37,078 bases of DNA, from the IMG/VR virus record IMGVR_UViG_2537562172_000008. One strand, 5' to 3'. The stretch is from a virus. Its lineage: Duplodnaviria; Heunggongvirae; Uroviricota; Caudoviricetes. Below are positions 15,001-18,000 of this stretch, in pieces. Each line of letters opens with the position of its first letter. Position 1 is the stretch's first letter. The position numbers were made by a program.

Positions 15001-18000
15001 CAATGGTAAACTCGTCAACCGGTGGCTGTGGTTCCTGTGATTCATTCTGGCTATGCGAGCCAGCACTAAGAATCACGCGATTGTACATATTGAGGGAAAA
15101 CGTACCGAGGTCTGCATTCCCAGTCAGCGCCATGTTAATAGCTGCCGCAAGACGCCAGGCCAACGCCTCCATAAAAATGGCATCAAACATGTTCACATCT
15201 GTAACGCGAGAGACATACTTGAGCCATGCCTGAGGCTGGTCTGTGTAGATCAACTTTCCTGTTCCGTTGGTGTCTGCACCAACTTCGTACTGAACGCGCA
15301 TTGCTGCTGTTGGATTGCGTACACCAGGAAGCATAATTTCAGTAATGCGCAGACAATCGGACGGGTACTGGTACGCATATTCCCAGTCAGGCGGTGGATT
15401 GCTCGTATCTGCAAGCGCCACGCGTTTGGTAGCAAAGTTCCAGTCAAAATCAGAAAGCACAGCATCACGGCAGGCCTCAAAGTGCAGCGAACATTCCCCC
15501 GCTTCCTTGCTGGCTTCCGTCAGGCTGTTAATGCTGCGGCTGTTGCCAATATTGGACAGCGCACGATTGCAGATCTCTACCACAGAGGCCATTACTCACC
15601 CCCATTGCCGTACAGGGTTTCAGCCGCTGATTTTTCTACATCCCCGGAAACAGGAGCGATCGCCATATCAGTGATCTGCAGATCGGCGATGCGATTAACA
15701 CCATCGTCAGTTTCTCTGGCAGACAGGCCTCGAATAACAGCCTTTGCAGTTATCATCACTTCTGTTCCGACGCCCTGAGGTTGCGCCTTCAGCTTATTCA
15801 ATGTGTCGTTATTAAGAGTGATGCACAGCCCCCACGGGTATTCATCGCGAGTTCTGGTTTCTCCGCTCTCATCCTGGTAGCTGTCAGTGCCGGTTTTGAG
15901 GTTTACGAGTTCCATATACACTCCTGCAATAAAGGGGCCGAAGCCCCTTGTCGGATTCGCGAGGCTTACACGCCCAGTTCTTTACGCTTATCTGCGATCT
16001 TCTCGCGGAGCGTTTCGGCTTTAGCGTTATGGTGTGGCTTCTCGTTAAAGAGCAATTCGTACTCTTCACGGAGCTTATCCAGTTCACCATCATCTGACAC
16101 ATCGTTGATGATTTTGGTGCTGGTTGCTGCCATTGACACCTTTCCTGCAACTTTTGCTTTTGCCTGTCTGGCTGCATCGTTAACAGGTTCCAGTGCGCTA
16201 CCAGGCTCACCTTCGTATTCGATTTCTGCCCCCTCCGGCCACAGTGTGTTATGGATATGAGAGAGGCGCAGAACGCGGTATCTTGGTTTCTCACCTGACA
16301 TCGATATCACCTTAACCAGTTACTTTTGAGCGGATCGGATACGGCGTATTGGCATCAACATCAAGACTGATACCAGCAGTGAATTCGCCAGCCGTTAGTG
16401 GGCCAGTTGCGACGGAGTAGTTAACACGCAGATATCGCTGAACACCGGCAGGCACCTTTGCAGAAACAACTCGTTTACCTGCTGTCAGGGCGGTCTTTGC
16501 CAGTGCACCACTATCATAAATAGTGGTCCATGAGCTGTTATCCTCACTCGTCTGCAACTGGATGTTTACAGTTGCATCACCGCTTGCTGCGGCGGCTGTG
16601 TTAACCAGCGCCCAAAACTCAAGCGGGTAACCCACGCCGATATCACGACGTTTTCCGTCAATTGGACCGAGATCGATTACGTCAGTAGAAGCCGCGGTAT
16701 TCGTAACCGCCTGAGCTTCGGAGAACATCAACAGTTTGTCGGTGATCATCTTCTTTCTCCATTAGTGGGTCTGTTACGACCCACAGGTTAATAACAGGCG
16801 TTACACCACGCGGGCTTCTGTTTCCAGAAGCGCATCAGTTTCACGGATTGGTACACCACGGAATGACGTCCACCACTCGCCTTCTGTCTCTTTTACGCTG
16901 ATCGCCAGAGATGTTTTCTCCAGAGATTGCAGATCAAGAGCCTGGCCTACAGTGCGGTTCATGTAGAACACCGGGCGACCCATGCCACGGTTTGGAATGC
17001 GATGCAGTGCTTTAACCATCAACTTCGCAATATTTGCGGCAGAGGAAGGTTCTGAAAGATTGCTGACATCGATGTTTGCAATGCGAACAACATAACGCCA
17101 GTCACGCAGAGCAAGTCCGTTATCCCATTTGTAATGGGTGCGATAGCCTTCGTACTTGCCGCCATTAGCATCTTCCAGTGTCACCTGGCCTTTATCTTCC
17201 ATCTGGATGCCAGCCTTCTGCCCTTTCGGGAAGATGCCATGCACGGTGTTTTCGCCCCACACCACTAACCAGATTGAGGTGTTATCTGTACCCGTGCCAC
17301 CAGCATCAATGATGTTCTGAGCATTACCCGCAGACAGGCTGGAATAGCGGGAGGAAAGTCCCATAAACTGCTGAGGGTTAACGCTGGAATCACCATAAAA
17401 CAGCGTCTGCGCCATCTGCTGATTCATCGCTTCAATAAATGCGCGGTCTTCAGACAGGCGGAATTCGGCGGTATTGCCGTTCAGATCAGCCAGTGACTTA
17501 TCGACTTCAGCATAGGTTTCCAGCATGCCCACGGAATCGGTTACCTGCACTGTGGTTGATTTGCTTGGCTGTACGCCATAGTTCAGCAAACGCCAGGTAG
17601 CTGAAGGTAAACCAGAACGAATGGTGGTTCGGTGTCCGGTAGGAAGGTTCCCTTCGACAAAAGGCATATCCTGAAGGATCGGGTTAGTTTGACCGAGAAG
17701 CTCGATAATCTTATCGACTTTCCCGTTTGGATCGACGCGCTTACCCCAGTCAGCCAGCGTTAGCGCAGTTAAGCCTTTAACAGCCATTGTTATTTCCTCT
17801 CTTATTTGCCATAGAGAACTTCGGCCGCACTACGCTGGCCTTCATTACCACCGGTGACCATGCCATCTTCAGACATCGCCTTTCCGATTTTCACGAACGT
17901 TTTGACCAGATCAGGGTGATTACCCAGTCCGGTGGTGTTCAGATATTCTTTGAGCTCGGGTGTCCCGAACTGGTCAAGCGCACGCTGTGCGGCGCTAAGG

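What the first reader, a model, noticed from the sequence alone, without database searches (positions are those of the whole stretch)
15931..16784. Stable stem-loops placed after the capsid-proximal genes inside the late operon
Seen: GTGGGTC-TGTTAC-GACCCAC (16765-16784) directly after the major capsid stop, and AGGGGC-CGAA-GCCCCT (15933-15948) after the 15966-16310 gene; on the minus-strand transcript neither is followed by a clean U-tract. Inference: attenuators or RNase-protective elements tuning the stoichiometry of capsid versus downstream tail proteins.
Basis: partly seen in the sequence, partly recalled or inferred. Interest (0 to 1): 0.2.

Follow-up and report, generated by a model that had tools for sequence, protein, structure and literature searches.

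The report
Conserved hairpins in phage head operon
Two short RNA hairpins between the head genes of a phiV10/epsilon15-like E. coli prophage are real and conserved: one is an ordinary, probably leaky, transcription terminator, and the other lacks a U-tract and probably shields the capsid message from decay, so the finding is genuine but of a familiar kind.

Summary
The window is a phiV10/epsilon15-like (Uetakevirus) prophage with its structural genes on the minus strand. Both hairpins are at the stated coordinates. They sit in the only two spacers of about 50 nt in a 16-kb run of 15 tightly packed structural genes.

Hairpin 1 (16765-16784) starts 16 nt after the major capsid stop codon and ends 4 nt before the ribosome-binding site of the Bbp16-like cement gene. 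It has no U-tract. It is kept in every enterobacterial relative despite very different stem sequences: 97.8% of cells are paired and 6 of 7 pairs show compensatory changes. BPP-1, BcepC6B and many prophages carry equivalent GC hairpins without a U-tract. It most likely acts as a barrier to 3' exonucleases that stabilises capsid mRNA. That mechanism is inferred, not shown.

Hairpin 2 (15932-15949, GGGGC-UUCG-GCCCC) is followed by UUUAUU. Relatives have tracts of up to eight U. In epsilon15 the equivalent site is annotated as a rho-independent terminator. It is a canonical intrinsic terminator, and it must be leaky because the tail genes lie downstream.

However, the genes that follow each hairpin encode capsid cement and staple proteins, not tail proteins. 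This is a new member of a known kind and of low interest.

The parts
16765..16784 (-). Hairpin 1. RNA GUGGGUC-GUAACA-GACCCAC: 7-bp stem, 6-nt loop, no U-tract.
   Evidence: Sequence; folds. Covariation: 97.8% of cells paired and 6 of 7 pairs with changes on both sides.
16750..16800 (-). 51-nt spacer between the major capsid stop codon and the cement-gene start codon. It contains hairpin 1.
   Evidence: A spacer of 50-55 nt is present in all but one enterobacterial relative; L011 was called at 32 nt by the heuristic but still carries the hairpin.
16757..16760 (-). Shine-Dalgarno GGAG of the cement gene, 4 nt downstream of hairpin 1.
   Evidence: GGAG is invariant in alignments A4 and A6.
15932..15949 (-). 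Hairpin 2. RNA AAGGGGC-UUCG-GCCCCUU: 5 G-C pairs plus 2 A-U pairs and a UUCG tetraloop. This is the stem of an intrinsic terminator.
   Evidence: The core is invariant in 29 distinct relatives. The equivalent epsilon15 site is annotated as a rho-independent terminator.
15928..15933 (-). U-rich tract UUUAUU directly after the GC core of hairpin 2. Its first two U overlap the closing A-U pairs. It runs into the GGAG at 15921-15924.
   Evidence: Relatives have UUUCUUG, UUUUUUG or seven to eight U in a row at this position.
15916..15965 (-). 50-nt spacer between the epsilon15 gp9-like gene and the Gp10-like gene. It contains hairpin 2.
16801..17787 (-). Major capsid protein gene (Bbp17-like), upstream of hairpin 1.
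16312..16749 (-). Bbp16-family capsid cement protein gene, downstream of hairpin 1.
   Evidence: Pfam PF21190, E = 2.8e-47. PGAP name.
15966..16301 (-). epsilon15 gp9-like gene of unknown function, upstream of hairpin 2.
   Evidence: phrog_590.
15592..15915 (-). Gp10-like capsid staple/decoration gene, the first gene after hairpin 2. The tail genes (14987-15592, 12528-14987) follow it without any gap.
   Evidence: Pfam PF21628, E = 3.4e-51..

Best explanation
Both hairpins are selected cis-elements of the minus-strand structural (late) mRNA of a phiV10/epsilon15-like prophage. They do different jobs.

Hairpin 2 (15932-15949 plus UUUAUU) is a Rho-independent terminator. It stops part of the host RNA polymerase traffic after the head-gene block (portal, protease/scaffold, capsid, cement, gp9-like). 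Its hairpin also caps the 3' end of those transcripts. The remaining read-through expresses the Gp10-like gene and the tail genes, for which no promoter-like site was found downstream.

Hairpin 1 (16765-16784) is not a terminator. It is a stable intercistronic stem-loop without a U-tract, placed just past the capsid stop codon. It most likely blocks 3'-to-5' exonucleases (PNPase, RNase II) once the downstream RNA has been cut. The capsid-containing message would then outlast the distal part, as described for malE-malF and menBCE.

Shown here: the sequences, their placement, their conservation and covariation, and the U-tract contrast between them. Inferred: termination, leakiness and exonuclease blocking.
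For: Placement. The two hairpins occupy the only spacers longer than 14 nt in 16 kb of structural genes.

Hairpin 1, conservation. Each of the 29 distinct spacers of at least 45 nt from enterobacterial relatives (capsid identity 79-100%) folded on its own. Twenty-five give a hairpin at this position, and the other four are the mismatch variants listed under evidence against. The stems include GUGGGUC, AUGGGCC, GCGGCCCG, GCCGCUCG, GCGGGGC, AUGGGCUGC and ACGGGCUGG. On the model-based alignment A6, 97.8% of cells are paired, 6 of 7 pairs change on both sides, 33 cells are compensatory, and slid controls give 21-57% pairing. RNAalifold predicts only this helix. Among near-identical prophages, a compensated U-A to C-G variant occurs 4 times and the G.U intermediate once, while stem-breaking variants are singletons.

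Hairpin 1, strand. There are 10 G.U cells and no A.C cells, which favours the sense RNA.

Hairpin 1, no U-tract. None of 20 clade variants and only 1 of 23 distant variants has at least 5 U in the 8 nt after the stem. The same genomes use clean U-tracts at the second site.

Hairpin 1, distant relatives. The hairpin tracks the capsid stop codon (median 8 nt after it) rather than the next start codon (median 28 nt before it). BPP-1 has GGGGGCGG-GCGA-CCGCCCCC and BcepC6B has GGGCGGCGC-UGCG-GCGCCGUUC at this place.

Hairpin 2. The GGGGC/GCCCC core is invariant, and the adjacent pair covaries as A-U, G-C or G.U. The tail is always U-rich, up to eight U in a row. epsilon15 annotates a rho-independent terminator at the same gp9/gp10 junction. 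BPP-1 has GGGGGC-UUCGU-GCCCCC-GCUUUUUCUUG before its tail genes. Many distant relatives have a classic terminator 620-960 nt after the capsid stop codon, abutting the next ribosome-binding site. The terminator is kept when the Gp10-like gene is absent.

Precedent. Leaky terminators right after capsid genes balance expression in T7 and LUZ100 (PMC10134795; PMC9163698). Protective 3' hairpins reshape E. coli operons (PMC5927463).
Against: No transcript 3' ends, half-lives or termination efficiencies exist for this phage or any relative in the material I could search.

Minimum free energies of the sense and antisense folds do not differ. Thermodynamics alone therefore does not fix the strand or exclude a DNA-level palindrome.

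Alignment A6 was fitted to the model's structure, which biases the pair counts towards it.

A stoichiometric rationale for hairpin 1 is weak, because cement protein and major capsid protein are 1:1 in BPP-1. For hairpin 2 it is also weak, because Gp10 is a capsid protein in epsilon15.

Hairpin 1 is dispensable. epsilon15 and SPN1S have a 12-nt spacer without it, and 38 distant relatives have short spacers with no hairpin. Within the enterobacterial clade itself, 4 of the 29 distinct spacers lack a hairpin that clears the -9 kcal/mol filter: three singleton point variants (L112, L115, L132) and L147, whose stem has an internal mismatch.

If late transcription is antiterminated, hairpin 2 might not attenuate at all. 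A phrog_536 regulator gene and a terminator-like hairpin precede terS.
Confidence: 0.55

Rival explanations
1. Hairpin 1 serves the downstream gene. RNase E cuts in the AU-rich 5' flank (CUGUUAUUAAC), and the hairpin becomes a 5'-terminal stem-loop that stabilises the cement-gene message, as in papBA. Alternatively it acts as an insulator or standby element for the ribosome-binding site 4 nt away.
For: In the enterobacterial clade the stem always ends 3-5 nt before GGAG, and the 5' flank is AU-rich and fairly conserved. papBA-type 5' protection is documented in E. coli (PMC5927463).
Against: In distant relatives the hairpin stays close to the capsid stop codon (median 8 nt), and its distance to the next start codon varies from -1 to 52 nt. 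By my own reading of the sequence, not a tool result, no good RN|WUU RNase E motif lies in the 5' flank. The constant spacing within the clade may simply be inherited.
Confidence: 0.15
2. Hairpin 1 is itself a weak, non-canonical terminator or a hairpin-dependent pause site that attenuates transcription directly after the capsid gene. This would be a host-polymerase analogue of T7 Tphi.
For: The position is the same as the terminators after the capsid gene in T7 and LUZ100. The hairpin is stable and GC-rich.
Against: The tail is UAAUGGAG, and no clade member has a U-tract. The same phages place clean U-tracts at the second site, so they use canonical terminators where termination is wanted. 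From established knowledge, E. coli RNA polymerase needs the U-tract for efficient intrinsic termination.
Confidence: 0.12
3. Hairpin 1 is an operator for an RNA-binding protein, for example capsid or cement protein repressing cement-gene translation as a feedback from assembly.
For: It lies next to the ribosome-binding site. Many clade members share UAAC in the loop.
Against: Stem and loop sequences both vary freely among close relatives. Loops include GUAACA, GCAACA, UUAACC, GGAA, GUGA, GAAA, UGCU and UGAU. That argues against sequence-specific recognition. Many loops are generic stable GNRA or UUCG tetraloops.
Confidence: 0.05
4. Hairpin 2 does not attenuate during lytic growth. Late transcription is antiterminated or otherwise terminator-resistant, and the element only blocks stray transcription in the lysogen or merely stabilises 3' ends.
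For: A phrog_536 'transcriptional regulator' gene is followed by a terminator-like hairpin just before terS. epsilon15 annotates the same pair. This recalls Q/tR'-type control.
Against: The structural genes from gp3 onward appear to form a separate unit behind an opposite-strand gene, a tRNA and terminators. No antiterminator family was detected: Pfam gave no hit for the regulator.
Confidence: 0.1
5. The hairpins are neutral or chance palindromes, or DNA-level features with no role in RNA.
For: Perfect 7-bp hairpins occur about 16 times by chance in a window of this size. Sense and antisense fold energies are equal.
Against: Both hairpins fall exactly in the only two long spacers. Compensatory changes occur at 6 of 7 pairs of hairpin 1. 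Hairpin 2 is invariant while flanking sequence diverges to 78% identity. G.U pairs are seen only in the sense orientation.
Confidence: 0.03

Closest known systems
Annotated rho-independent terminator between gp9 and gp10 of Salmonella phage epsilon15 (NC_004775.2, stem_loop 7664-7686)
   Same: Same gene junction, between the gp9 and gp10 homologues. Same GGGGCC/GGCCCC-type GC stem with a U-rich tail that runs into the next ribosome-binding site. Alignment A2 shows the shared UUCGGCCCC core.
   Different: epsilon15 has a longer stem (AAAAGC-GGGGCC...GGCCCC-GCUUUU) and is annotated on both strands. The window version is shorter, has an interrupted U-tract (UUUAUU), and has no U-rich tail on the + strand. 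The epsilon15 annotation is itself a prediction.
T7 Tphi and the LUZ100 terminator immediately downstream of the major capsid gene (PMC10134795; PMC9163698)
   Same: A hairpin element placed right after the capsid gene inside the structural gene string. It is thought to make capsid mRNA more abundant than mRNA for distal genes.
   Different: Those elements are terminators for phage-encoded single-subunit RNA polymerases and have U-tracts. Hairpin 1 has no U-tract, and this phage family shows no phage RNA polymerase in the window. Use of host polymerase is assumed, not shown. The next gene here is another capsid component.
Protective intercistronic 3' stem-loops in E. coli operons (malE-malF, menBCE), Dar and Sorek 2018 (PMC5927463)
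   Same: A stable, evolutionarily conserved hairpin without terminator function, downstream of the cistron that needs most product. Consecutive hairpins can give stepwise decay, which would fit hairpin 1 followed by hairpin 2.
   Different: No decay data exist here. The malE-malF element is a REP repeat, whereas hairpin 1 occurs once in this window. Most E. coli examples lie inside the downstream coding sequence, whereas this one is in a dedicated spacer.
papBA-type 5' stem-loop stabiliser (PMC5927463)
   Same: An intercistronic hairpin close to the downstream gene's ribosome-binding site.
   Different: It requires RNase E cleavage just upstream, and no good motif was seen. In distant relatives the hairpin tracks the upstream stop codon rather than the downstream start codon.

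Membership tests
Rho-independent (intrinsic) terminator - hairpin 2 | GC-rich stem-loop (about 5-14 bp, loop 3-8 nt) on the transcribed strand, in non-coding RNA after a stop codon. | tested here: met
   The stem has 5 G-C and 2 A-U pairs with a UUCG loop and dG -12.1 kcal/mol. It starts 16 nt after the stop codon at 15966-15968.
Rho-independent (intrinsic) terminator - hairpin 2 | U-rich tract immediately 3' of the stem. | tested here: met
   UUUAUUGC follows the GC core, with 5 U in 8 nt. Relatives have tracts of up to eight U in a row. The simple scan did not list this site; the probable reason, inferred from its stated rule, is that it counted the tail after the A-U extension of the stem.
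Rho-independent (intrinsic) terminator - hairpin 2 | RNA 3' ends generated at the U-tract by RNA polymerase, in vivo or in vitro. | not testable with these tools
   No transcript data are available. The epsilon15 annotation is a prediction.
Rho-independent (intrinsic) terminator - hairpin 1 | U-rich tract immediately 3' of the stem. | tested here: not met
   The tail is UAAUGGAG. At most 2-3 U occur in any 8-nt window. None of 20 clade variants and only 1 of 23 distant variants reach 5 U.
Protective intercistronic stem-loop (3' exonuclease barrier) - hairpin 1 | Stable hairpin just 3' of the stabilised cistron, outside the footprint of the terminating ribosome. | tested here: met
   It starts 16 nt after the capsid stop codon and has dG -12.4 to -14 kcal/mol.
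Protective intercistronic stem-loop (3' exonuclease barrier) - hairpin 1 | Structure, rather than sequence, conserved across relatives. | tested here: met
   97.8% of cells are paired. Six of 7 pairs show changes on both sides, and slid controls give 21-57% pairing. Caveat: the alignment was fitted by the covariance model.
Protective intercistronic stem-loop (3' exonuclease barrier) - hairpin 1 | Processed 3' ends at the hairpin base, and a longer half-life of the upstream segment that depends on the stem and on PNPase/RNase II. | not testable with these tools
   This needs Term-seq and rifampicin-chase experiments.
RNase III processing site (T7 R-site type) | Roughly 20 bp or more of (interrupted) double-stranded RNA. 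| tested here: not met
   Both stems are 7 bp. The flanks add only weak pairs, and the centroid structures show the bare hairpins.
Any curated Rfam family | Match to a covariance model at or near its gathering score. | tested here: not met
   Only tRNA-Arg was found in the window. Nothing relevant was found in 15800-16900 at E-values up to 10.

The most novel reading that the evidence does not exclude
Hairpin 1 is not a passive decay barrier but a regulated switch. A hairpin without a U-tract, conserved from E. coli prophages to Bordetella BPP-1 and Burkholderia BcepC6B, would couple capsid-gene translation or capsid assembly to expression of the cement gene. It might do this through ribosome-dependent termination or pausing, as in mccA-mccB, or through binding of a structural protein. 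That would set the 1:1 capsid:cement ratio after transcription.
Probability: 0.06. Interest if true: 0.45.

Novelty: new member of a known kind. Interest (0 to 1): 0.2.

Why it matters
The result gives a cleaner regulatory map of a prophage family found in about 10% of complete E. coli genomes (532 of 5426). That family also includes the structural-biology models epsilon15 and, more distantly, BPP-1. The structural operon has two punctuation marks. One is a covariation-supported stem-loop without a U-tract after the capsid gene. It is not annotated in the phiV10, Tyrion, Klebsiella phi3.2, 65FD, BPP-1 or BcepC6B records inspected. The other is an intrinsic terminator at the head/tail junction. 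The side-by-side contrast within single genomes (no U-tract versus U-tract) is a neat natural test case for separating mRNA-protective hairpins from terminators. It is also useful for engineering phiV10-based reporter phages. It does not change any concept.

Tried and rejected
- **Rfam:** the whole window at gathering thresholds and the locus at E-values up to 10 gave nothing but a tRNA.
- **RNase III site:** rejected because the stems are only 7 bp.
- **Stop-codon read-through or frameshift stimulator:** rejected. By my own reading of the sequence, the capsid reading frame meets another TAA nine codons after its stop, inside the loop. The spacing is 16 nt here but 2-17 nt in most distant relatives.
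- **Pseudoknot or alternative helix:** the 5' flank CUGUUA could pair with the loop UAACAG. This is sterically implausible because the third loop would be 0 nt (my reading), and the complementarity is absent in Tyrion, 65FD and the Klebsiella phage.
- **Extended pairing of the 5' flank with the ribosome-binding region:** it appears in some minimum-energy folds but not in centroid structures or in the RNAalifold consensus.
- **Strand assignment from fold energies:** there is no difference between sense and antisense. Only the G.U versus A.C count is informative.
- **Plain MAFFT alignment of hairpin 1 spacers (A4):** it put the 9-bp-stem group one column out of register, so a covariance model (R1) was used instead.
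- **Hairpin 2 covariation:** it is almost absent, with only one covarying pair, and the slid controls are high because of the G/C runs. The evidence for hairpin 2 is therefore conservation plus anatomy.
- **Literature searches:** no transcript mapping was found for epsilon15, phiV10 or BPP-1.
- **Promoter scan:** it found no minus-strand promoter-like site downstream of hairpin 2 that could drive the tail genes independently.
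Full report
**Context.** The window is about 98% identical to Escherichia phages phiV10, TL-2011b and PAS61 (genus Uetakevirus, the epsilon15 group). Close copies occur in 532 of 5426 complete E. coli genomes. The structural genes lie on the minus strand in this order:
- portal, 18793-20472
- a small gene, 18500-18796
- protease/scaffold, 17802-18503
- major capsid protein, 16801-17787 (Bbp17-like)
- a Bbp16-family cement protein, 16312-16749 (Pfam PF21190)
- an epsilon15 gp9-like gene, 15966-16301
- a Gp10-like capsid staple gene, 15592-15915 (PF21628)
- the tail genes, 14987-15592, 12528-14987 and onward

**Observation.**
- On the mRNA, hairpin 1 reads GUGGGUC-GUAACA-GACCCAC (16784 down to 16765). 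It starts 16 nt after the capsid TAA and ends 4 nt before the GGAG of the cement gene. Its tail, UAAUGGAG, is not U-rich.
- Hairpin 2 extends to AAGGGGC-UUCG-GCCCCUU (15949 down to 15932). It also starts 16 nt after a stop codon. Its GC core is followed by UUUAUUGCAGGAG, so the statement that no clean U-tract follows is only literally true.
- The isolated hairpins have dG of about -12 kcal/mol. The spacer folds have z-scores of -2.5 and -1.7.

A perfect 7-bp hairpin is not rare by itself: the window has 36 entries against about 16 in shuffles. However, from 4727 to 20693 every gap between genes is at most 14 nt, except two gaps of 50 and 51 nt, and those are the two hairpin spacers.

**Hairpin 1 in relatives.** I fetched 160 loci encoding capsid homologues from species-representative genomes and from IMG/VR, plus annotated phages.
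- Every enterobacterial relative (capsid identity 79-100%) carries a hairpin at this place, and in all but L011 (called at 32 nt by the heuristic) the spacer is 50-55 nt. Each spacer was folded on its own.
- Of the 29 distinct spacers of at least 45 nt, 25 give a clean hairpin. The other four are three singleton point variants (L112, L115, L132) and L147, whose stem has an internal mismatch.
- The stems are very different: GUGGGUC, GUGGGCC, AUGGGCC, GCGGCCCG, GCCGCUCG, GCUGCCCG, GCGGGGC, AUGGGCUGC and ACGGGCUGG. Many loops are GNRA or other stable tetraloops.
- A covariance-model alignment (R1 and A6) gives 97.8% paired cells. Six of 7 pairs change on both sides and 33 cells are compensatory. 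When the partner columns are slid, pairing falls to 21-57%.
- RNAalifold predicts this helix and nothing else.
- Even among prophages with identical capsid protein, a compensated U-A to C-G variant occurs four times and the G.U intermediate once. Stem-breaking changes are singletons.
- Ten G.U cells and no A.C cells point to the sense RNA, although fold energies are the same on both strands.
- No clade member has a U-tract after the stem.

Further out, at 55-66% capsid identity, 23 distinct loci have a strong GC hairpin. Examples are BPP-1 (GGGGGCGG-GCGA-CCGCCCCC) and BcepC6B. Only one of the 23 has a U-tract. These hairpins sit a median of 8 nt after the capsid stop codon, while their distance to the next start codon varies. 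Another 38 loci, and epsilon15 and SPN1S, have short spacers with no hairpin. The element is therefore common but dispensable.

**Hairpin 2 in relatives.**
- The GGGGC/GCCCC core is invariant in 29 distinct spacers. The adjacent pair covaries as A-U, G-C or G.U.
- The tail is always U-rich: UUUAUUG, UUUCUUG, UUUUUUG, or seven to eight U in a row. It runs straight into CAGGAG.
- In epsilon15 the same gp9/gp10 junction carries a stem-loop annotated as a rho-independent terminator.
- BPP-1 has GGGGGC-UUCGU-GCCCCC-GCUUUUUCUUG before its tail gene bbp14.
- Many distant relatives have a classic terminator 620-960 nt after the capsid stop codon, abutting the next ribosome-binding site.
- In relatives that lack the Gp10-like gene (EC.W1-9, L095, L110, L133, L143) the terminator is retained and directly precedes the tail adaptor gene.

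**Mechanism.**
- Hairpin 2 meets the sequence definition of an intrinsic terminator. The tail genes follow it with no promoter-like site, so it must be leaky or bypassed. This is an inference.
- Hairpin 1 fails the U-tract criterion in every relative, while the same genomes use clean U-tracts 850 nt downstream. It is therefore a different device.
- The best-supported reading for hairpin 1 is a 3' exonuclease barrier that preserves the capsid-containing part of the polycistronic RNA. This is the mechanism described for malE-malF and for the consecutive hairpins of menBCE (PMC5927463). Hairpin 2 would provide the primary 3' end and an attenuation step, as leaky terminators do in T7, LUZ100 and LUZ7.
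- Rivals are a papBA-like 5' stabiliser or ribosome-binding-site insulator, a weak terminator or pause site, a protein operator, and an antiterminated hairpin 2. They are weighed in the rival list. None can be excluded without transcript data.

The elements do not separate capsid genes from tail genes here.
- The gene after hairpin 1 encodes a cement protein. In BPP-1 that protein is 1:1 with the capsid protein (PMC3863775).
- The gene after hairpin 2 encodes a homologue of the epsilon15 capsid decoration protein Gp10, which is expendable (PMC7602432).
- Simple stoichiometric tuning is therefore an incomplete rationale.

**Verdict.** The feature is real. Hairpin 2 is already known in kind and is effectively annotated in epsilon15. 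Hairpin 1 is an unannotated but conventional type of element with unusually clear covariation. Overall this is a new member of a known kind, of low interest.

Noticed in passing
window 4558-4569, 21772-21783, 24037-24048: The perfect 12-bp palindrome GTGACATGTCAC occurs three times exactly, where chance predicts about 0.002 copies. All three copies are intergenic and next to terminator-like hairpins: after a small ORF at about 4580-4715, after terL, and between the phrog_536 regulator gene and terS. epsilon15 and phiV10 have it at equivalent places (L170 3113-3124, L171 2142-2153, L001 12278-12289). It may be the binding site of a phage regulator.
   Followed up: partly
window 23978-23995 (minus strand), with about 23944-23958 and 20784-20798: A terminator-like hairpin, GCCGCC-AACUAU-GGCGGC followed by UUUAUUUUG, sits just upstream of terS and downstream of a 112-aa 'transcriptional regulator' gene (24045-24383). 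The arrangement recalls Q/tR'-type late control. Nearby TTACC-N5-GGTAA inverted repeats resemble the sites annotated as 'repressor' binding in epsilon15 (before terS and before gp3).
   Followed up: partly
window 21121-21197 (+): A tRNA-Arg (anticodon TCT) gene lies between the terminase genes and the gp3-portal block, on the strand opposite to the structural genes. Both ARAGORN and Rfam found it.
   Followed up: no
L008 1594-1649; also L095, L110, L133, L143: Some otherwise near-identical phages lack the Gp10-like staple gene precisely. Hairpin 2 and its CAGGAG are retained and now sit directly in front of the tail adaptor gene. Gp10 therefore behaves as an optional cassette just downstream of the terminator.
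   Followed up: partly
window 4540-4557 (minus strand): A classic terminator, AGGCCGC-UUUC-GCGGCCU followed by UUUCUUUAU, lies after a small hydrophobic ORF in the 645-nt gap between the 4727-7201 gene and the 1700-4081 gene. It probably marks the end of the long structural transcription unit.
   Followed up: no
L002 6162-6173; L009 4662-4673: epsilon15 and SPN1S have a different capsid protein type (43% identity) and only a 12-nt spacer, with no hairpin, after the capsid gene. They keep the downstream terminator. Hairpin 1 therefore goes with the Bbp17-type capsid module rather than with the genus.
   Followed up: partly
window 16772-16803 (minus strand): The tetranucleotide UAAC recurs three times in the hairpin 1 spacer: at the stop-codon context UAAC, in the flank AUUAAC, and in the loop GUAACA. 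It is also common in the loops and flanks of close relatives, but it is not universal. No meaning has been established.
   Followed up: no
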